Shown here one piece after another: positions 3,223 to 18,634 of a DNA stretch of 64,000 nucleotides (the stretch's first letter is position 1; every line of letters begins with the position of its first letter). This DNA is from a virus. The notes below the pieces were generated by a model. That model made no database searches and was not told the origin of the DNA. It saw only the letters and a list, made by a program, of their open reading frames with translations. The stretch spans positions 64,001 through 128,000 of IMG/VR virus record IMGVR_UViG_3300028734_000012; one strand, 5' to 3'. The position numbers and the translations under genes are program-made.

Positions 3223-3251
3223 ATTATAGTATAATCCATGATGTTTGTCAA
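3223..3251 (-). promoter_or_regulatory. sigma-A-type promoter TTGACA-N17-TATAAT with ATTATACTATAAT palindrome
   Basis: Reverse complement reads TTGACA aacatcatgg ATTATAC TATAAT. Confidence 0.85.
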
Positions 3252-3375
3252 GTAATTAAATAAAATAATTAAAATATATTTTCCCCTATTTCATTTTTAA
3301 TCAAATATTTAAATAAACTATATTTTATATGAATTAAATAAATACTTAAAATTTCTATTATATAAACATTGGATT

Positions 3376-12058: not shown

Positions 12059-12274
12059 TTGACAAATTAATTGGATTATACTATAATATATATAGAAACA
12101 AAAATACATATTAAAAAAAAGAATTTTTAATTAATTTAGAAAACTACTTGACAAACAATATAAATTATACTATAATATATATAGAGACCAAGTAAATAAC
12201 AAAACTTAATAAAAAAAAGAATTTTTAAAAAGTTTTAAAAATTACTTGACAAACACTACAAATTATACTATAAT
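12059..12274 (+). promoter_or_regulatory. three tandem consensus sigma-A promoters (12059-12087, 12148-12176, 12246-12274)
   Basis: Each reads TTGACA-N10-ATTATAC-TATAAT with exact 17-nt spacing, in ~90-100-bp repeated units. Confidence 0.9.
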
Positions 12275-12298
12275 ATATATAGAGAACAGAAACACTAA

Positions 12299-12353
12299 AA
12301 GATACTTACAGCTATTAACTACATAAAAATTATATTTTTTATTTAGTATCTTG
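12299..12353 (+). ncRNA. ACAGC-stem RNA copy 1
   Basis: AAGATACT-TACAGCTA...AGTATCTTG. Confidence 0.7.
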
Positions 12354-12359
12354 TTTTTT

Positions 12360-12433
12360 AAGGCACTTACAGCTAACTAATAATAGAAAGAATACATACT
12401 AAATATATATTTACTTTAATTATTAGTGCCTTG
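12360..12433 (+). ncRNA. ACAGC-stem RNA copy 2
   Basis: AAGGCACT-TACAGCTA...AGTGCCTTG. Confidence 0.7.
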
Positions 12434-12504
12434 GTAATATCGCATTTAAAAGTGAAAGCTTTTAAAAATATAAAATATTTATGAATTAAAGGGAGAAAAT
12501 CAAC

Positions 12505-12786
12505 ATGACTAGTAAAACATTTATTAAAGCAGTAGCAGATGCTACAGGTAAGACACAGAAAGACACTAAAGCATTCCTTGACGGTGTAGAGACAGTACTT
12601 AAATCAACAGTCGCATCAGCAGTTGTTGGAGAAAAAGTTAAAGTTCTTGATACTACATATACAGTTAAAGATGTATCCGCAAGAGAAGGCAGAAATCCTG
12701 CAACTGGTGAATCTATTTCAATTCCTGCAACAAAGAAAGTTGCACTTAAAGTATCTAAGGATTTCAAGGATGTAGTTAAAGCCTAA
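12505..12786 (+). CDS. hup: HU family DNA-binding protein
   Basis: AREGRNPATGESISIPA...K.SK.FKD.V motif. Confidence 0.95.
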   Translation: MTSKTFIKAVADATGKTQKDTKAFLDGVETVLKSTVASAVVGEKVKVLDTTYTVKDVSAREGRNPATGESISIPATKKVALKVSKDFKDVVKA

Positions 12787-12870
12787 TTTTAACTAAAACG
12801 GATATAATGCTTAAAATATTATAAACGCTTAGATGAAGCCGTGAGTGATGGCTTAAAATCACTCAAATAT

Positions 12871-12945
12871 ATCACTGTAATTTAACTGGTAAAATACGAA
12901 ACTGATAATTTCGATTTCTAAGTCCAAGTCTTAGCGGTGATACCA
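12871..12945 (+). tRNA. tRNA-Ile(GAT)
   Basis: Acceptor ATCACTG/CGGTGAT; anticodon arm CGAAA-CTGATAA-TTTCG; encoded CCA; T-loop slightly degenerate. Confidence 0.8.
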
Positions 12946-12948
12946 TTT

Positions 12949-12985
12949 GGGTTTGTCATATAATGGTTATTATGTGACGTGATTT
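12949..12985 (+). pseudogene. 5' half of an interrupted tRNA
   Basis: GGGTTTG acceptor strand and D-arm (ATATAATGGTTATTAT), with no adjacent 3' half. Confidence 0.5.
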
Positions 12986-12987
12986 AA

Positions 12988-13085
12988 ATAGGTTTTATAT
13001 TATAATTGCAATTATAATATAAGTAATTAATTTTATTACCACAATTAATAAAATTCCCTATAATATCTTTTATTGTGGAAAGGAT
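12988..13085 (+). ncRNA. HNH-leader three-way-junction/kissing-loop RNA, copy A
   Basis: Same length and structure as 16039-16136, with compensatory changes. Confidence 0.75.
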
Positions 13086-13092
13086 AATAATT

Positions 13093-13794
13093 ATGGATAT
13101 TAGTAAAAAGCAAATTGAAGAAACTGCAATACATTCTACTTCTTTAAGTGATTTGTTAGGAAATTTAGGTTTTACTAAAAGTGGTGCTAATACAAAAAAT
13201 TTAAATAAGTTAATTAAAGAATATAGCATTGAAACTAAATTTAATACTATAGTACATCGTATAGTAAATAATGATGACATATTTATTCAAGATAGTACTG
13301 CAAATCAATCAACTTTAAGACGTCATTATTATGAATTAACTAAAGAAAATTATCATTGTTATATTTGTGGACAAGAATCAGCATGGTTTGGAAAAGAACT
13401 TTCTTTAACATTAGACCATATTAATGGAGATAATCATGACGATAGATTTGAAAATTTAAGATGGATTTGTCCAAATTGTGATAGGCAACTTGATACTTTT
13501 AGTGGAAAAAATATTAAAAATAGAAAGTCTAAATTGTTAGATTCAAAAACGTGCAAAAGTTGTGGAAAAGAATTTATTCCTAAAAATACAATTCAAGAAT
13601 ATTGTTGTATAGAATGTGTCCATATATCTCAAAGAAAAACAATTAGACCATCTAAAGATGAGTTGTCAATATTAATTCGTAATTATACTTTTGTAGATTT
13701 AGGAAAGATGTTTGATGTTTCAGATAACACTATTAGAAAATGGTGTAAAATATATGGTTTACCATATTTAAAATCTGAAATTTTAAATACATAA
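13093..13794 (+). CDS. HNH homing endonuclease with Zn finger and C-terminal HTH
   Basis: CYICG...LTLDHINGDNHDDRFENLRWICPNCD; AAAGGA RBS before ATG 13093. Confidence 0.85.
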   Translation: MDISKKQIEETAIHSTSLSDLLGNLGFTKSGANTKNLNKLIKEYSIETKFNTIVHRIVNNDDIFIQDSTANQSTLRRHYYELTKENYHCYICGQESAWFGKELSLTLDHINGDNHDDRFENLRWICPNCDRQLDTFSGKNIKNRKSKLLDSKTCKSCGKEFIPKNTIQEYCCIECVHISQRKTIRPSKDELSILIRNYTFVDLGKMFDVSDNTIRKWCKIYGLPYLKSEILNT

Positions 13795-13801
13795 TTATTT
13801 T

Positions 13802-13876
13802 GGTTGTATAGTATAGCGATTATTACATCGGACTGTCACTCCGAAAATCAGAGTTTAACTCTCTGTATAACCGCCA
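13802..13876 (+). tRNA. tRNA-Asp(GTC)
   Basis: TCGGA-CTGTCAC-TCCGA anticodon arm; GCCA end; degenerate T-loop. Confidence 0.75.
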
Positions 13877-13880
13877 AATA

Positions 13881-13917
13881 ACAGTAAATCCGAGTTCGAT
13901 TCTCGGCATTCCCGCCA
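13881..13917 (+). pseudogene. 3' half of an interrupted tRNA
   Basis: Intact T-arm CCGAG-TTCGATT-CTCGG plus CATTCCC-GCCA, with no adjacent 5' half. Confidence 0.65.
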
Positions 13918-13952
13918 AAACCGTAAGTGATGGTTATATAATCACTTAATAA

Positions 13953-14030
13953 TACAGGGTAGAGAAGTTTGGTCATCTCATTAGGCTCATAACCTAAAAA
14001 TCGCTAGTTCGAATCTAGCCCCTGCAACCA
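13953..14030 (+). tRNA. tRNA-Met(CAT), initiator-like
   Basis: TTAGG-CTCATAA-CCTAA anticodon arm; GTTCGAATC T-loop; ACCA end. Confidence 0.8.
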
Positions 14031-14062
14031 AGGAAACCTATATCCTTTAAAGTAGGTGATAT

Positions 14063-14138
14063 ATCTGTTGGACGGTAAGGTATCGTTGTCTATCTCATAA
14101 GTAGATACAATTCGCTTCGATTGCGAAAGCAGATACCA
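14063..14138 (+). tRNA. atypical tRNA-Met/Ile2(CAT)
   Basis: ATCTGTT/AGCAGAT acceptor; TCTAT-CTCATAA-GTAGA anticodon arm; ACCA end; non-canonical D region. Confidence 0.6.
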
Positions 14139-14176
14139 GAATTTTATTTAGAATGGTGGTGTGTTATTAAACAATA

Positions 14177-14608
14177 ATGAAAAATGGTGAATACATATTA
14201 GTTGTTGCCCCAAAAAATTACGATGGTAAAAAATATAGAAATAAATATTGTTATGAACATATTTTAGTTTATTGGGAATATTATAAAATATTACCAAAGG
14301 ACAATGAAATTATACATCATATTGATGGTAATAAACATAATAATGACATATCTAATTTAAAATTAATGTCAAAATTAGAACATGATATATTACATAAAAA
14401 TAAAAGAGGAATTAAATTTGTAATGCTAAAATGTACTGGATGTGGTAAAATTTTCGAAAAAGAAAAGAGAAAAACATTTTTAATTAGTGGTGGAAAATTT
14501 ACTTGTTGTTGTCGTAAATGTATAGGTATAACCACTGGATTAAATCAAGAAGAAAAAAATAAAAGGATATCTCAAAATTTAATATATGAATTTACTAAAT
14601 ATAAATAA
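14177..14608 (+). CDS. HNH homing endonuclease
   Basis: YEH...IHHIDGNKHNNDISNL...H; C-terminal CxxC...CC..C. Confidence 0.85.
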   Translation: MKNGEYILVVAPKNYDGKKYRNKYCYEHILVYWEYYKILPKDNEIIHHIDGNKHNNDISNLKLMSKLEHDILHKNKRGIKFVMLKCTGCGKIFEKEKRKTFLISGGKFTCCCRKCIGITTGLNQEEKNKRISQNLIYEFTKYK

Positions 14609-14619
14609 ATCAATTATAT

Positions 14620-14691
14620 TCTGGTGTAACACAACGGTAGTGTAATTCCCTGTTAAGGAAAAGGCTGTTGGTTCAAGTCCAACCACCAGAG
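14620..14691 (+). tRNA. tRNA-Asn(GTT), no encoded CCA
   Basis: TCTGGTG/CACCAGA acceptor; TTCC-CTGTTAA-GGAA anticodon arm; GGTTCAAGTCC T-arm. Confidence 0.85.
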
Positions 14692-14692
14692 C

Positions 14693-14765
14693 GTTCCACA
14701 ATTTACAGTAACCTTTACGTGGTGTGGAATATCAACTATCTAAATTGATAGGCTAATAACTGTAA
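14693..14765 (+). ncRNA. HDV-like (theta) self-cleaving ribozyme 1
   Basis: P1 GTTCCAC/GTGGAAT, P2 TTACAGT/ACTGTAA, P3 ACC/GGT, L3 TTTACGT, P4 ATCAA/TTGAT, J4/2 GGCTAA. Confidence 0.75.
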
Positions 14766-14804
14766 TTATTAATAATAGGTATATAATCATAATAGAGAAA
14801 ACAT

Positions 14805-14878
14805 AGCACCATCGAATAAAAGTAATTCGCAAGGTTCTCAACCTTGTAATCTGGTGGCAGAATCCAGTGGTGTTACCA
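14805..14878 (+). tRNA. tRNA-Glu(CTC), atypical T-loop
   Basis: CAAGG-TTCTCAA-CCTTG anticodon arm; ACCA end. Confidence 0.65.
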
Positions 14879-14882
14879 ACAT

Positions 14883-14958
14883 GGCACATTAGGCAAGTGG
14901 ACTAAGCCGTCACCCTTTCACGGTGAAGACACCGTTTCAATTACGGTATGTGTCTCCA
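14883..14958 (+). tRNA. tRNA-Glu(TTC)
   Basis: TCACC-CTTTCAC-GGTGA anticodon arm; CCA end. Confidence 0.85.
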
Positions 14959-15010
14959 TAGTTCTCTTTTAGTGCTTTTCTATCTTTGCAAATAGTAAAA
15001 GCGCATTTAT

Positions 15011-15093
15011 GTCGAAGTGATGGAATGCATACATGCTAGTTTTAGAAGCTAGTGCCGAAAGGATTAGGAGTTCAAATCTCCTCTTCGACACCA
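15011..15093 (+). tRNA. tRNA-Leu(TAG)
   Basis: CTAGT-TTTAGAA-GCTAG anticodon arm; long variable arm; ACCA end. Confidence 0.85.
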
Positions 15094-15122
15094 TTGACAA
15101 TCTGGAAAGACAGATAAAATAT

Positions 15123-15197
15123 GGAAGATTAGCTTATGTGGTAAAGCAGTAGTCCGAAGAACTACGGAATCCTATTCGAACGAGGAATGTTCCACCA
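15123..15197 (+). tRNA. tRNA-Phe(GAA), atypical (C33, irregular T-arm)
   Basis: GTAGT-CCGAAGA-ACTAC anticodon arm; ACCA end. Confidence 0.6.
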
Positions 15198-15321
15198 GTT
15201 GAACAACGCAGGATACATATACGTTATAGGAGTAGGCACTAGTGCCCGCACCAAATTCTAAAAAATTAAGTAAATAGAGTGATATCCCTATCTGAAAGAT
15301 TTTTAAGTGTATCCAATATAT

Positions 15322-15396
15322 GGGGTCTGTAGTGTAATGGTAGCACGGAAAATTGTGATTTTTTAAGTAACAGTTCAATTCTGTTCATTCCCACCA
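15322..15396 (+). tRNA. tRNA-His(GTG)
   Basis: GAAAA-TTGTGAT-TTTTT anticodon arm; acceptor stem with two mismatches; CCA end. Confidence 0.7.
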
Positions 15397-15427
15397 AGCA
15401 ATAAGCACGGCTTTGTAGATGCTTTTA

Positions 15428-15486
15428 AAGACACACACAGCGATACAATAATAATAAAATATTTGCTTTTTATTAACTGTGTCTTG
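15428..15486 (+). ncRNA. ACAGC-stem RNA copy 3
   Basis: AAGACACA-CACAGCGA...TGTGTCTTG. Confidence 0.7.
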
Positions 15487-15565
15487 TTATCTAATTGGGT
15501 TCGTAACCTCAATTTCTTTGCGGCGAAGAGTTTAAATATGAGCCGAAAATAAGTTACGATTATAC

Positions 15566-15655
15566 GGAGAATAAACCAGACAGGCGAACTGGAACTGCCT
15601 TGAAAACAGATTGATGTTTAACAGCATTGGGTTTCGAGTACTCTGTTCTCCGCCA
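15566..15655 (+). tRNA. tRNA-Ser(TGA)
   Basis: GGAGAAT/GTTCTCC acceptor; CTTGAAA loop; long variable arm; GCCA end. Confidence 0.8.
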
Positions 15656-15764
15656 AATTAGTGTGAAAATGGAACAACCACGCTATCTTACCTATAGAGA
15701 GTTTAAATAAATATAGGTGTTGACCTAATTAGGGTAGTAAAACTAATTTGTTGTTCCAAAATAT

Positions 15765-15840
15765 GTACTATTAGTGTAAATGGCAAGCACTTCTGCCTTC
15801 CAAGCAGAGAATTTCGGTTCAAGTCCGAAATGGTACACCA
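15765..15840 (+). tRNA. tRNA-Gly(TCC)
   Basis: TCTGC-CTTCCAA-GCAGA anticodon arm; ACCA end. Confidence 0.85.
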
Positions 15841-15891
15841 AACCTACTTTTCTGTTGCTTGGCTGTAGATAATGTGGAACAGAATTTTTAT

Positions 15892-15963
15892 CGAGGATGA
15901 GTTGTAATGGTATGCATGTGTACCTTGGACGTATGCGGAGAGGTTCGATTCCTACATCTTCGA
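15892..15963 (+). tRNA. tRNA-Pro(TGG), degenerate, no encoded CCA
   Basis: CGAGGAT/ATCTTCG acceptor; CTTGGAC loop; GGTTCGATTCC T-arm. Confidence 0.65.
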
Positions 15964-16035
15964 GTTAGACAAGATAATATACCTCTATGTGGTGTCAAAC
16001 ATCAACTGTTATTTATAACAGGCTAAATTATTATC
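15964..16035 (+). ncRNA. HDV-like (theta) self-cleaving ribozyme 2
   Basis: P1 GTTAGAC/GTCAAAC (one mismatch), P2 GATAAT/ATTATC, P3 ACC/GGT, L3 TCTATGT, P4 CTGTTA/TAACAG, J4/2 GCTAA. Confidence 0.7.
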
Positions 16036-16038
16036 AAA

Positions 16039-16136
16039 ATAGGTTTTTATATAGTGTTGCAACATTATATAAAGTAATTAAACTAATTGCTACTATCAAT
16101 TAGTTTCCCTATTAAATCTTTTATAGTAGAAAGGAT
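16039..16136 (+). ncRNA. HNH-leader three-way-junction/kissing-loop RNA, copy B
   Basis: Structural homolog of 12988-13085. Confidence 0.75.
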
Positions 16137-16140
16137 AGAA

Positions 16141-16965
16141 ATGTTAAGTCAAGAAGAATTTGAAAAAAGAATATCTATTACATTTAATGATACGATTGAG
16201 ATTTTATCTGATTATAAGGGTAAGAGAAAAGACATAGAACTTAAATGTAAGAAATGCGGTTATCAATGGAATGTAGTTGCACAAAATGCAATGTATGGAA
16301 AACAAAGAAACTGTCCAGAATGTGAAATTGATAAAAAGAAAACAGGAGATTCTATAGTATGCGCTAATTGTGGCAAGAAAATATATAGAGTAAAGTCAAA
16401 GATGAGTAAATCAAAAAGTGGCTTGTACTTCTGTAATAGGAATTGTTCAAGTACATATTTTAATCATTCTAGTAATATAGTATCTATAAATAATTATAGA
16501 GATAAAGCTATAGATTATTATGGTGCAAAGTGTGAACTATGTGGAGACAATGAAGATATAAGATTATTAGATGTACATCATATTGATGAAAACAGATGTA
16601 ATAATGAAATTAATAATCTAATTGTTTTATGTGTTAAATGCCATGCTAAAATTACAAGAGGTATAGATAAACTTATTGATAGAACTCTGATAATAAATGA
16701 AGATAATATTGATAAAAATAACTCTGTGCATTGTAAGCCAGAAACAGTACATAAAAAATATTGTAAAATAAATTGTTATGATAAAACAGATAATCTAATA
16801 AAATCATTTAATAAAATGTCTGATGCATTAGATTGGTTAAAACAATTTTACCAAAATCCATCATCTACTCATATAATAGAATGTATCTTACATAAGAGAA
16901 AAAGTGCATATAATTATATTTGGGTTGGAGTGACTATAAATAAAAAGATACTTACAGCTATATAA
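16141..16965 (+). CDS. HNH endonuclease with Zn ribbons and C-terminal NUMOD1-like domain
   Basis: CELCG...DVHHIDENRCNNEINNLIVLCVKCH; KSAYNYIW; RBS before ATG 16141. Confidence 0.85.
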   Translation: MLSQEEFEKRISITFNDTIEILSDYKGKRKDIELKCKKCGYQWNVVAQNAMYGKQRNCPECEIDKKKTGDSIVCANCGKKIYRVKSKMSKSKSGLYFCNRNCSSTYFNHSSNIVSINNYRDKAIDYYGAKCELCGDNEDIRLLDVHHIDENRCNNEINNLIVLCVKCHAKITRGIDKLIDRTLIINEDNIDKNNSVHCKPETVHKKYCKINCYDKTDNLIKSFNKMSDALDWLKQFYQNPSSTHIIECILHKRKSAYNYIWVGVTINKKILTAI

Positions 16966-17023
16966 ATTAATGATTTAGAATATGAAATTGTATAGGAATA
17001 TTAAGCGTGTAAGCAGTATCTTG
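16945..17023 (+). ncRNA. ACAGC-stem RNA copy 4
   Basis: AAGATACT-TACAGCTA...AGTATCTTG; overlaps the last codons of the HNH gene. Confidence 0.7.
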
Positions 17024-17031
17024 TAAATGGA

Positions 17032-17101
17032 AAGGCACATACAGCTAATTTTAAAATCAAGAAGAATATTATAATTCTACTAATTTTTATTTAGTGCCTT
17101 G
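17032..17101 (+). ncRNA. ACAGC-stem RNA copy 5
   Basis: AAGGCAC-ATACAGCTA...GTGCCTTG. Confidence 0.7.
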
Positions 17102-17127
17102 TCAATAGTTTTAAGTAAAGAGGTCAT

Positions 17128-17886
17128 ATGGGAGAAAAAGAAAATAACAATTGTTCAGTGTATGTACATATTTTCCCTAATAGCAAACTATATTTTGGGA
17201 TTACTTCATTAGTACCACAAATACGATGGGGAAATAACGGAATAGGATATCAAGGTCAATGTGTATATAGTGCAATAAATAAATATGGTTGGGATAATAT
17301 TGAGCATATTATTTTATATGATAATTTGACGTTGGAACAGGCTAATAATTATGAAAAATTATTTATTAAATATTATGATACCAAAATTGATAATGGTAAT
17401 GGTTATAATGTTACAAATGGTGGTAATGGAACTTGTGGATACATATGGTCAGAAGAACAAAAATTAATTTTAAGTAAATCTCATATGGGATTAAATAATT
17501 TTATTAATAAGACTGAAAACGAAATGGAAGAAATAAATAAAAAGCGTAGTAAGTCAATAACAGAAACAATTAATTCGGAAGATTGGAAAGCAAAAAATAA
17601 AGGAATACATATAGGACATATAGTTTCTAAAGAGACAAAAGATAAAATAAGTAACTCTTTAATTGGATATAAACGTTCTGATTCTTTTAAAAAAAAATTA
17701 AGTGATATCCATAATATTCCTGTAATATGTGTATCAACAGGAGAAATATTTAAATCTACAAAAGAAGCAAGTAAGTTTTATAACTGTGATAGTTCAAATA
17801 TTACTGCATGTTGTAAAGGTAGGTTAAAAACAGCAGGTAAATTTAATGGAGTTAAGTTAGTATGGGAATATTGTACCAACATGTGA
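17128..17886 (+). CDS. GIY-YIG homing endonuclease with NUMOD3/NUMOD1 domains
   Basis: VYVH..PNSKLYFGIT, AINKYGWDN, E...I, GYN...GG, ITACCKG..KTAG. Confidence 0.8.
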   Translation: MGEKENNNCSVYVHIFPNSKLYFGITSLVPQIRWGNNGIGYQGQCVYSAINKYGWDNIEHIILYDNLTLEQANNYEKLFIKYYDTKIDNGNGYNVTNGGNGTCGYIWSEEQKLILSKSHMGLNNFINKTENEMEEINKKRSKSITETINSEDWKAKNKGIHIGHIVSKETKDKISNSLIGYKRSDSFKKKLSDIHNIPVICVSTGEIFKSTKEASKFYNCDSSNITACCKGRLKTAGKFNGVKLVWEYCTNM

Positions 17887-17986
17887 ATCATAACACATAA
17901 AAATAAAATGTGGCTAGTCGATTACTGCTTGGCTGATTGGTAGTATAGGTTATGTAGCCTTAGTTTTACTTTGACTATATAAATAT

Positions 17987-18062
17987 GGGGATATAATTCA
18001 TTTGGTAGAATATCTGCCTTGCAAGCAGAACGTGAACGGTTCAAATCCGTTTATCTCCACCA
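17987..18062 (+). tRNA. tRNA-Ala(TGC)
   Basis: GGGGATA/TATCTCC acceptor with G3:U70; TCTGC-CTTGCAA-GCAGA anticodon arm; ACCA end. Confidence 0.9.
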
Positions 18063-18159
18063 ACATATCAAGTCGGAATGGAGACATTAAACCCATATCC
18101 ATTCCAGAATAAAACTGTGAAAAATTGATGGTTATACTTCCATACAAAAAGTAATTTAT

Positions 18160-18233
18160 GGTCAATTATTTTAACGGTAGAATCTCTGTTTTGTAATCAG
18201 AAGATGCGGGTTCGATTCCTGCATTGACCTCCA
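18160..18233 (+). tRNA. tRNA-Thr(TGT)
   Basis: GGTCAAT/ATTGACC acceptor; TTTGTAA loop; CCA end. Confidence 0.8.
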
Positions 18234-18350
18234 CTTTCATTGACCTATATCTGCTTTGTTGCAAGAGTGGTGTAGAGAGAAAGCTTTAACTGTTTGTATG
18301 TATAACATGACTGCAACTATGTACTTTAGTACACAAAAACATTCGTTCAT

Positions 18351-18427
18351 ACGCTAATGGCTTAACTGGATAAAGCATCAGATTTCTAATCTGTGTATTG
18401 GGGGTTCAAGTCCCTCTTAGCGTACCA
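18351..18427 (+). tRNA. tRNA-Arg(TCT)
   Basis: ACGCTAA/TTAGCGT acceptor; CAGA-TTTCTAA-TCTG anticodon arm; ACCA end. Confidence 0.85.
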
Positions 18428-18432
18428 AATTA

Positions 18433-18488
18433 AAGATACTTACAGCTATTAAATAAAATCAAGCTTTATTGATAAAAATAGTATCTTG
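18433..18488 (+). ncRNA. ACAGC-stem RNA copy 6
   Basis: AAGATACT-TACAGCTA...AGTATCTTG. Confidence 0.7.
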
Positions 18489-18494
18489 TTATAT

Positions 18495-18568
18495 GGGGCA
18501 ATAGTCCAACGGTAGAACGTCAGCTTCCAAAACTGATTACGTGGGTTCAACTCCTACTTGCTTCGCCA
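18495..18568 (+). tRNA. tRNA-Trp(CCA)
   Basis: GGGGCAA/TTGCTTC acceptor; TTCCAAA loop; GCCA end. Confidence 0.8.
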
Positions 18569-18605
18569 AATATCTCATTGAACGTGAGTATAAAGAATGT
18601 TCATT

Positions 18606-18634
18606 AAACACCTATTTTTTATAGGTGTTTTTTT
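18606..18634 (+). terminator. intrinsic terminator ending the tRNA operon
   Basis: AAACACCTAT-loop-ATAGGTGTTT followed by a T-run. Confidence 0.85.

What the first reader, a model, noticed from the sequence alone, without database searches (positions are those of the whole stretch)
12988..16136. Undescribed 98-nt three-way-junction + kissing-loop RNA leading two different HNH endonuclease genes
Seen: two elements (12988-13085 and 16039-16136) have identical segment lengths. Each runs ATAGG-TT-[28-nt palindromic hairpin centred on TTGCAA]-GTAATT-[10-bp stem, 7-nt loop]-C-CCTAT-3 nt-ATCTTTT-[7-nt loop]-AAAGGAT, then the ATG 4-7 nt later. The stems differ in sequence but stay paired. The two 7-nt loops are exactly complementary within each copy (CCACAAT/ATTGTGG in A, CTACTAT/ATAGTAG in B), which is a covarying loop-loop interaction. 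The last hairpin buries the Shine-Dalgarno sequence. The two HNH proteins have different domain layouts, so this is not a recent duplication. Known: simple RBS-occluding hairpins repress phage homing endonuclease translation. Inference: this larger fold could be a translational switch protecting the highly transcribed tRNA operon from nuclease overexpression, a ribozyme or processing signal, or an RNA partner of the nuclease. I recognise no RNA family for it.
Basis: partly seen in the sequence, partly recalled or inferred. Interest (0 to 1): 0.9.

Follow-up and report, generated by a model that had tools for sequence, protein, structure and literature searches.

The report
Structured RNA leader on phage HNH genes
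Two unrelated homing-endonuclease genes inside a phage tRNA operon carry the same 98-nt folded RNA leader, which probably keeps the nuclease from being over-translated. It is a new RNA motif for a known kind of control, seen so far only in one small group of uncultured phages.

Summary
The elements at 12988-13085 and 16039-16136 have the same layout. They differ at 28 of 98 columns. Of these, 26 form 13 compensatory base-pair changes, two of them in the 7-bp loop-loop pairing, and the other two lie in a short linker. All 13 other unpaired positions are invariant.

I found two further versions upstream of 72-77% identical HNH-B genes in related metagenomic phages. In the four-sequence alignment, 163 of 164 pair cells are paired and 14 pairs show compensatory change. 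All wobble pairs are G-U on the + strand, so this is an RNA structure.

No Rfam family matches, and there are no other copies in the 176-kb genome. Six pattern scans of public collections and the contexts of more distant HNH homologues gave no further copies.

The leader sits at the 5' edge of mobile HNH cassettes, inside an operon with three perfect sigma-70 promoters. The hairpin holding the ribosome-binding site is worth only -2 kcal/mol. Any repression must therefore depend on the loop-loop pairing (-5.5 to -7.1 kcal/mol).

It is not shown that this pairing can coexist with helix P1, and function is inferred throughout. I read it as a new variant of phage homing-endonuclease translational control, narrow in distribution and of moderate interest.

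The parts
12059..12274 (+). Three tandem perfect sigma-70 consensus promoters (TTGACA-17-TATAAT) that head the HU gene plus tRNA/HNH operon
   Evidence: The genome holds 43 such perfect promoters.
12871..12945 (+). tRNA-Ile, the last gene before cassette A
12949..12985 (+). Degenerate 5' half of an older tRNA-Asp, the left flank of cassette A
   Evidence: It aligns to the 5' half of tRNA-Asp in relative L064. In relative L092, tRNA-Ile is followed after 3 nt by tRNA-Asp, which is the empty site.
12988..13085 (+). Leader A. P1 12988-12992/13057-13061; P2 12995-13006/13011-13022; P3 13029-13038/13046-13055; L3 13039-13045; P5 13065-13071/13079-13085 (the 3' arm is the Shine-Dalgarno sequence); L5 13072-13078.
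13093..13794 (+). HNH-A, a 233-aa HNH homing endonuclease
   Evidence: PHROG phrog_10822, E 5e-38. Gene callers use the same start (P0001).
13802..13876 (+). Intact tRNA-Asp carried inside cassette A
13881..13917 (+). 3' half (T arm, acceptor, CCA) of the older split tRNA-Asp, the right flank of cassette A
15893..15962 (+). CCA-less tRNA-Pro-like gene upstream of leader B
   Evidence: Rfam tRNA 27.1 bits, gathering score 29. Relatives have tRNA-Pro at this place.
15964..16033 (+). HDV-like (theta-type) ribozyme candidate, ending 5 nt before leader B
   Evidence: Rfam RF02682 34.2 bits, gathering score 44, E 4e-5
16039..16136 (+). Leader B. P1 16039-16043/16108-16112; P2 16046-16057/16062-16073; P3 16080-16089/16097-16106; L3 16090-16096; P5 16116-16122/16130-16136 (the 3' arm is the Shine-Dalgarno sequence); L5 16123-16129.
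16141..16965 (+). HNH-B, a 274-aa HNH endonuclease with an N-terminal zinc-finger-like domain
   Evidence: Pfam HNH and DUF4379; PHROG; the start agrees with homologues P0122 and P0123.
18606..18630 (+). Intrinsic terminator that closes the tRNA/HNH operon

Best explanation
The 98-nt element is a cis-acting, structured 5' leader of HNH homing-endonuclease mRNAs. It travels as the first module of the mobile HNH cassette that is inserted between or into tRNA genes.

The tRNA operon is read from three consensus early promoters, so the nuclease genes are transcribed heavily whether or not the phage benefits. The leader folds into a three-way junction (P1, P2, P3) followed by a small hairpin, P5, whose 3' arm is the Shine-Dalgarno sequence.

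P5 alone is too weak to block ribosomes. The 7-nt loop of P3 pairs with the 7-nt loop of P5, and this locks the ribosome-binding site shut. Only a little nuclease is then made, and ribosomes are kept away from the neighbouring tRNA and ribozyme folds.

Shown: the fold, its covariation, its strand, its position, the operon context and the energy terms.
Inferred: that the loop-loop pairing forms inside one molecule, that it lowers translation, and why this is useful.
For: 1. RNA structure. In four distinct sequences, 163 of 164 pair cells are paired and 14 pairs show compensatory change. 0 of 500 shuffles reach this, and slid controls pair at only 44-53%. RNAalifold gives the same fold.

2. Strand. 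Every non-Watson-Crick pair is G-U on the + strand: four variable pairs plus one fixed pair in P5. None is A-C.

3. Link to translation. The 3' arm of P5 is the Shine-Dalgarno sequence in all four versions, and the ATG lies 4-9 nt downstream.

4. Energy terms. P5 contributes -2.0 to -2.3 kcal/mol and P1 -1.2 to -2.4. The cognate L3:L5 duplex contributes -5.5 to -7.1, and non-cognate A/B loop pairs +0.1 to -2.4.

5. Conserved unpaired bases. The 13 unpaired positions outside the linker are invariant between A and B, while 32% of paired positions changed. By my own estimate this has probability of about 0.007 if rates were equal, so the junction is under sequence-specific constraint.

6. A module independent of the ORF. 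The leaders are 71% identical with sharp borders, while the proteins are unrelated. The B-type leader is 89-90% identical to its orthologues, against 77-80% for the ORF.

7. Context. There are three perfect promoters upstream and no terminator before 18606. Leader A starts within 7 nt of the cassette's left break in a split tRNA-Asp. The orthologous leaders start 0-3 nt after tRNA-Pro.

8. Precedent. [quoted passage not shown] It is predicted, not shown, for segB in the T4 tRNA cluster (PMC2988022, PMC2330249).
Against: 1. There are no expression or structure-probing data.

2. By pseudoknot-free folding, the ribosome-binding sites of these two genes are not unusually occluded: ranks 51 and 121 of 223 genes. 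Leader A's minimum-energy fold does not even contain P3 and P5 when extended into the ORF.

3. P5 never varies, so it has no covariation support of its own.

4. L3:L5 covariation rests on a single A-versus-B comparison.

5. By my own rough geometry, a straight P3-kiss-P5 stack is about 24 bp (about 65 A). The connection between its ends is 1 nt, the 5-nt P1 strand and 3-4 nt. The full 7-bp pairing may therefore need P1 to open, or may form between molecules.

6. Other HNH genes in the same operons lack the leader. One contig carries the HNH-B orthologue with the leader cut off inside L3.

7. No conserved way of relieving the repression was found. The sigma-70-like internal promoter seen in A is not kept in B or L067.
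Confidence: 0.5

Rival explanations
1. The element is an RNA processing, stability or insulator module. It gives the HNH mRNA a folded 5' end once the upstream tRNA or ribozyme has been cut away. That end protects the mRNA from 5' exonucleases, or shields neighbouring tRNAs from misfolding. Any effect on translation is secondary.
For: The leader begins 0-5 nt after a tRNA 3' end or an HDV-like ribozyme in three of four contexts. P1 would then be at the very 5' end of the processed RNA. It is the first module of the inserted cassette. P5 alone is too weak to repress.
Against: This does not explain why L3 must pair with the loop of the Shine-Dalgarno hairpin, nor why the anti-SD strand is invariant. 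Leader A is 42 nt from tRNA-Ile, not adjacent. A stabiliser would raise nuclease output in an already strongly transcribed operon.
Confidence: 0.15
2. The element is a two-state switch. P1 (the three-way-junction state, with the ribosome-binding site mostly open) and the L3:L5 lock (site closed) exclude each other. A ligand, a protein or temperature acting on the invariant junction chooses between them, as in a riboswitch.
For: The junction and apical nucleotides are invariant beside freely covarying stems. P1 is worth only -1.2 to -2.4 kcal/mol, against -5.5 to -7.1 for the loop pairing. The linker is short (3-4 nt), which makes coexistence doubtful (inference). In A and L064 the P1 3' strand can instead extend P5 over the start codon.
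Against: There is no ligand candidate. Only about 13 conserved unpaired nucleotides are seen. The distribution is very narrow. No riboswitch model matches. The alternative P5 extension is not conserved in B.
Confidence: 0.12
3. The two complementary loops pair between molecules, hand in hand as in phi29 packaging RNA. The leaders would then form dimers or rings, or act as an RNA partner of the nuclease.
For: It has a three-way junction plus two mutually complementary loops, and pairing within one molecule looks strained (inference). The A and B loop pairs are orthogonal. The P2 apex is a conserved 6-nt palindrome.
Against: It is an mRNA leader with the Shine-Dalgarno sequence inside it, not a separate transcript. 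The Rfam pRNA and HEARO models give no hit. The proteins are ordinary small HNH enzymes of two unrelated kinds.
Confidence: 0.06
4. The element acts at the DNA level as a promoter or operator, a palindromic protein-binding site, or a cruciform or recombination site of the cassette.
For: P2 is a perfect 28-bp palindrome in A. A sigma-70-like site (10 of 12 matches) lies at 13036-13064. The element sits at the cassette edge.
Against: All imperfect pairs are G-T on the + strand only, which would be A-C mismatches on the other strand. The stem sequences drift while pairing is kept. The promoter-like site is not conserved in B or L067. The conserved motifs are not enriched elsewhere in the genome. 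Promoter-like sites in the region are no more frequent than in shuffles (54 against 49).
Confidence: 0.07
5. The element is a new small self-cleaving ribozyme.
For: The phage uses HDV-like ribozymes in the same operon. The element has a three-way junction with a tertiary loop contact.
Against: No ribozyme family matches, even at E up to 10. The core is AU-rich, with no known catalytic motif.
Confidence: 0.03

Closest known systems
[quoted passage not shown] Sources: PMC2988022, PMC2330249.
   Same: A nuclease gene rides on a long early polycistronic transcript, and segB also sits inside a tRNA cluster. The Shine-Dalgarno sequence is placed in a stem. The presumed purpose is to restrain translation.
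   Different: Those are single, very stable hairpins (about -20 kcal/mol is predicted for segB), and most have a late promoter inside or beside them. Here the SD hairpin is worth -2 kcal/mol. It depends on a 7-bp pairing with the loop of a distant helix in a three-way junction. No conserved internal promoter is seen. The same leader serves two unrelated nucleases.
phi29-family packaging RNA (pRNA); from my own knowledge. The Rfam pRNA model gave no hit here.
   Same: A three-way junction carries two loops that are complementary to each other and covary between phages.
   Different: pRNA is a separate transcript that binds the portal. Its loops pair over 4 bp and only between molecules. This element is an mRNA leader that contains a ribosome-binding site.
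Purine and lysine riboswitch aptamers (three-way or multi-way junction with a loop-loop contact and an SD-containing expression platform); from my own knowledge.
   Same: There are conserved junction nucleotides, covarying stems, a loop-loop tertiary contact, and an SD in the last helix.
   Different: There the loop contact is within the aptamer (L2-L3), not between the aptamer and the SD hairpin. No model matches here, no ligand is indicated, and far fewer nucleotides are conserved.
ColE1 RNA I / RNA II kissing complexes with fully paired 7-nt loops; from my own knowledge.
   Same: Two 7-nt hairpin loops are complementary over all seven positions.
   Different: Those form between two molecules, an antisense RNA and its target, and control plasmid replication.
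HEARO / IscB omega RNA (HNH-endonuclease-associated RNA); from my own knowledge plus the Rfam scan.
   Same: A structured RNA lies next to an HNH-domain gene.
   Different: HEARO is several hundred nt long and guides a large RuvC+HNH protein. Here the proteins are 233 and 274 aa, of homing-endonuclease type, and no Rfam hit was found.

Membership tests
T-even-type RBS-sequestering regulators of homing endonuclease genes | The Shine-Dalgarno sequence lies in a stem of the leader. | tested here: met
   The P5 3' arm is the SD in all four versions.
T-even-type RBS-sequestering regulators of homing endonuclease genes | The sequestering hairpin is very stable on its own. | tested here: not met
   P5 is -2.0 kcal/mol. 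SD occlusion ranks 51 and 121 of 223 genes.
T-even-type RBS-sequestering regulators of homing endonuclease genes | A late or middle promoter lies inside or beside the structure, so that late transcripts escape it. | tested here: inconclusive
   A sigma-70-like site is seen in A only. Its -10 equivalent is not kept in B or L067. The late-promoter motif of this phage is unknown. segB also lacks such a promoter.
T-even-type RBS-sequestering regulators of homing endonuclease genes | The gene lies on a long early polycistronic transcript. | tested here: met
   Three perfect promoters at 12059-12274 and the first convincing terminator at 18606. These are predictions, not transcript data.
Any Rfam 15 family (including pRNA, HEARO, riboswitches and small ribozymes) | A covariance-model match at or near the gathering score. 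| tested here: not met
   No hit at gathering score. No meaningful hit on the elements at E up to 10.
phi29-type pRNA | A separate small transcript whose complementary loops pair between molecules. | not testable with these tools
   The loops are complementary. Whether they pair within or between molecules cannot be computed here. The element is continuous with an ORF.
Riboswitch | A conserved ligand-binding core found widely, with ligand-dependent structure. | not testable with these tools
   13 invariant unpaired nucleotides in only four sequences.
Group I intron in a tRNA gene | A group I catalytic core around the ORF. | tested here: not met
   An E-value scan of 12940-13960 finds only the tRNA.

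The most novel reading that the evidence does not exclude
The leader is a portable two-state RNA device. A weak three-way-junction state (P1 closed, ribosome-binding site open) competes with a 7-bp loop-loop lock, formed either within one molecule or hand in hand between molecules. The invariant junction senses a factor that sets the balance. Homing-endonuclease cassettes of different protein families have captured this device as a shared expression controller.
Probability: 0.15. Interest if true: 0.7.

Novelty: new variant of a known kind. Interest (0 to 1): 0.5.

Why it matters
Homing endonucleases are selfish nucleases that must be expressed just enough to spread without harming the phage. 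The known control is a single strong hairpin over the ribosome-binding site.

This element would show a different solution. It is a compact, modular leader in which a weak hairpin is locked by a programmable loop-loop contact, and unrelated nuclease genes share it. The contact exists in two orthogonal versions within one genome.

If confirmed, it would add a small, well-defined natural RNA part for tuning translation. It would also show that regulatory RNA modules move together with, and between, mobile nuclease cassettes in phage tRNA operons.

Tried and rejected
**Searches for more copies**
- Seven exact-pattern scans built from the conserved blocks covered viral contigs (5), metagenome contigs (2) and genome contigs (1 further scan). 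All hits failed the covariance model or nhmmer and look like coding-sequence chance matches.
- The collections may leave out near relatives of the window.
- HNH-A homologues at 42-50% identity in other large phages also sit beside tRNAs but lack the element.
- An HNH-B homologue at 48% identity lacks it.
- PhoH-based relatives (37-47% identity) and their whole records lack it.
- A terminase-based search found no relatives. A search with the HU protein found only two.
- GenBank phages gave no DNA match in near or distant mode.
- Contigs of the same phage from other samples carry identical leaders, so they add no variation.

**Ideas tested and dropped**
- Internal promoter: the sigma-70-like site in A is not conserved.
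- Phage late promoter: no clear motif was found.
- Antisense promoter in B (9 of 12 matches): it has no counterpart in A and is at chance level.
- Leader peptide: there is no conserved short ORF in the leader (read from the sequence).
- General promoter or repeat: the conserved blocks are not enriched elsewhere in the genome. A look-alike at 3250-3290 is chance.
- Group I intron: no hit.

- Relatives cannot be drawn for a virus record.


Full report
**Where this is**

The window is bases 64001-128000 of a 176,332-bp uncultured virus record with 30.6% G+C. No close relative exists among deposited phages. The promoters, the Shine-Dalgarno sites and the best protein matches point to a phage of Bacillota, which is an inference.

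Positions 12059-18630 form one predicted operon. It starts with three perfect TTGACA-17-TATAAT promoters, then an HU gene, then 13 tRNA genes interspersed with four homing-endonuclease genes. These are HNH-A 13093-13794, an HNH_3 gene 14177-14608, HNH-B 16141-16965 and a NUMOD3-type gene 17128-17886. A terminator at 18606-18630 closes the operon.

The two 98-nt elements are exactly as described. I name the parts as follows:

| Part | Content |
|---|---|
| P1 | AUAGG / CCUAU |
| P2 | 12 bp, with apex UUGCAA |
| J2/3 | GUAAUU |
| P3 | 10 bp |
| L3 | 7-nt loop of P3 |
| linker | 3 nt |
| P5 | AUCUUUU / AAAGGAU |
| L5 | 7-nt loop of P5 |

- L3 and L5 are CCACAAU and AUUGUGG in A, and CUACUAU and AUAGUAG in B.
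- Of the 28 columns that differ between A and B, 26 make up 13 compensatory pairs: 7 in P2, 4 in P3 and 2 in L3:L5. The other two are in the linker.
- None of the other 13 unpaired positions differs.
- The pattern has no chance matches in shuffles. A covariance model built from the pair finds only these two places in the genome.
- The similarity stops sharply at both ends.
- The two proteins are unrelated apart from the HNH motif.

**More members**

Close homologues of HNH-B (72-77% identity) lie on metagenomic contigs L064 (identical to L065) and L067. Each is preceded by a full-length leader scoring 88.8 and 99.2 bits. Both have the B-type loops, and both show new changes in P1, P2 and P3.

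Results on the four distinct sequences:

- 163 of 164 pair cells are paired.
- 14 pairs carry compensatory change.
- No shuffle out of 500 reaches the observed values.
- Sliding the partners drops pairing to 44-53%.

RNAalifold recovers the same fold without being told it, and adds one U-G pair to P2. All wobble pairs are G-U on the + strand, which is what an RNA read in the sense direction predicts and a DNA palindrome does not.

The B-type leader is better conserved than the ORF behind it, at 89-90% against 77-80% nucleotide identity.

**Distribution**

I found nothing else. There is no Rfam family at gathering score or at E up to 10. No copy turned up in the following places:

- more distant HNH-A or HNH-B homologue contexts;
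- PhoH-based relatives;
- pattern scans of the viral, metagenome and genome collections, screened with the model and with nhmmer.

Other samples of the same phage carry identical leaders. The family therefore stands at four sequence versions from three closely related phage lineages. The pattern scans need exact conserved blocks, so diverged members could have been missed.

**The leader belongs to the mobile cassette**

- In relative L092, tRNA-Ile is followed after 3 nt by tRNA-Asp.
- In the window, the stretch just left of leader A (12949-12985) aligns to the 5' half of a tRNA-Asp. The stretch right of the intact tRNA-Asp (13881-13917) aligns to a 3' half.
- So leader A, HNH-A and a replacement tRNA-Asp sit inside an older, split tRNA-Asp, and the leader begins within 7 nt of the left break.
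- The orthologous B-type leaders begin 0-3 nt after a tRNA-Pro.
- In the window, leader B begins 5 nt after an HDV-like ribozyme that follows a CCA-less tRNA-Pro-like gene.
- Other HNH genes in these operons have different leaders.

**How it probably works**

The only part with an obvious reading is P5, whose 3' arm is the Shine-Dalgarno sequence. The energy terms are:

| Element | kcal/mol |
|---|---|
| P5 | -2.0 to -2.3 |
| P1 (net) | -1.2 to -2.4 |
| L3:L5 duplex, cognate | -5.5 to -7.1 |
| L3:L5 duplex, non-cognate A/B | +0.1 and -2.4 |

By nested folding, the ribosome-binding sites of these genes are not unusually hidden. The loop-loop pairing is the largest term.

My reading is that the three-way junction presents L3 so that it clamps the loop of the SD hairpin and turns a weak hairpin into an effective lock. 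This keeps nuclease synthesis low on a very strongly transcribed operon.

The precedent comes from T-even phages. There, I-TevI-III and mobE are shown, and segB in the tRNA cluster is predicted, to be restrained by structures over the ribosome-binding site (PMC2988022; PMC2330249). For I-TevI, the same restraint protects the folding of neighbouring structured RNA.

**Limits**

- Function is inferred, because no transcript or probing data could be obtained.
- P5 is invariant, so it has no covariation support of its own.
- L3:L5 covariation is one comparison.
- A straight P3-kiss-P5 stack would be about 24 bp long. The chain that joins its two ends is 1 nt, the P1 strand and 3-4 nt. By my rough geometry the full pairing may require P1 to open, or may form between molecules as in phi29 pRNA.
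- That leaves room for a switch or for self-association. The invariant junction nucleotides suggest a specific tertiary fold or a bound factor.
- The natural variant L066 carries the same protein as L064 with the leader replaced upstream of L3. It is either a truncated allele or an assembly artefact.

**Verdict**

This is a real and well-supported RNA motif that is undescribed in Rfam. Its most likely function is translational restraint of a homing endonuclease, which is a known kind of control built in a new way. Its distribution is narrow.

The same stretch was also noted by first-stage readers of overlapping windows of this genome. The scan holds nothing like it from other DNA.

Noticed in passing
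window 14693-14767 and 15964-16033: Two HDV-like ribozyme candidates (Rfam RF02682, 39.4 and 34.2 bits, gathering score 44) lie directly behind tRNA-Asn and a weak tRNA-Pro-like gene (15893-15962, 27.1 bits). This is the arrangement described for theta ribozymes that trim tRNA 3' ends in phages (PMC10879173, seen by title and abstract only).
   Followed up: partly
window 12949-12985 and 13881-13917: These look like the two halves of an older tRNA-Asp, split by the cassette of leader A, HNH-A and an intact tRNA-Asp. Relative L092 has the uninterrupted tRNA-Ile / tRNA-Asp junction.
   Followed up: partly
whole genome G000; window 12059, 12148, 12246: The genome holds 43 perfect TTGACA-17-TATAAT promoters, 24 on the + strand and 19 on the - strand. 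They are clustered in the early regions, and three stand in tandem in front of the tRNA operon.
   Followed up: no
L095 against window 17103-17900: A contig of the same phage from another sample lacks the 252-aa NUMOD3-type endonuclease gene, with about 183 nt in its place. This is a presence/absence polymorphism typical of a mobile homing-endonuclease gene.
   Followed up: partly
L066:1-93: This contig encodes the same HNH-B orthologue as L064, but the leader is replaced upstream of the last bases of L3 by unrelated sequence. Only the P3 3' arm, the P1 3' strand and P5 remain. It is either a natural truncated allele or an assembly chimera.
   Followed up: partly
L064:456-540: The leader of a different HNH gene (200 aa), at the position of cassette A in the related phage, shows a 7-nt long-range pairing just upstream of its Shine-Dalgarno sequence and a 4-bp pairing onto the SD itself. 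This is a single sequence with z-score -1.4, so it is unsupported.
   Followed up: partly
L063 (contig carrying HNH-A homologue P0022): The homologue translates to the query only with TAG read as Gln, so it lies in a stop-codon-recoded phage. It also sits next to a tRNA.
   Followed up: no
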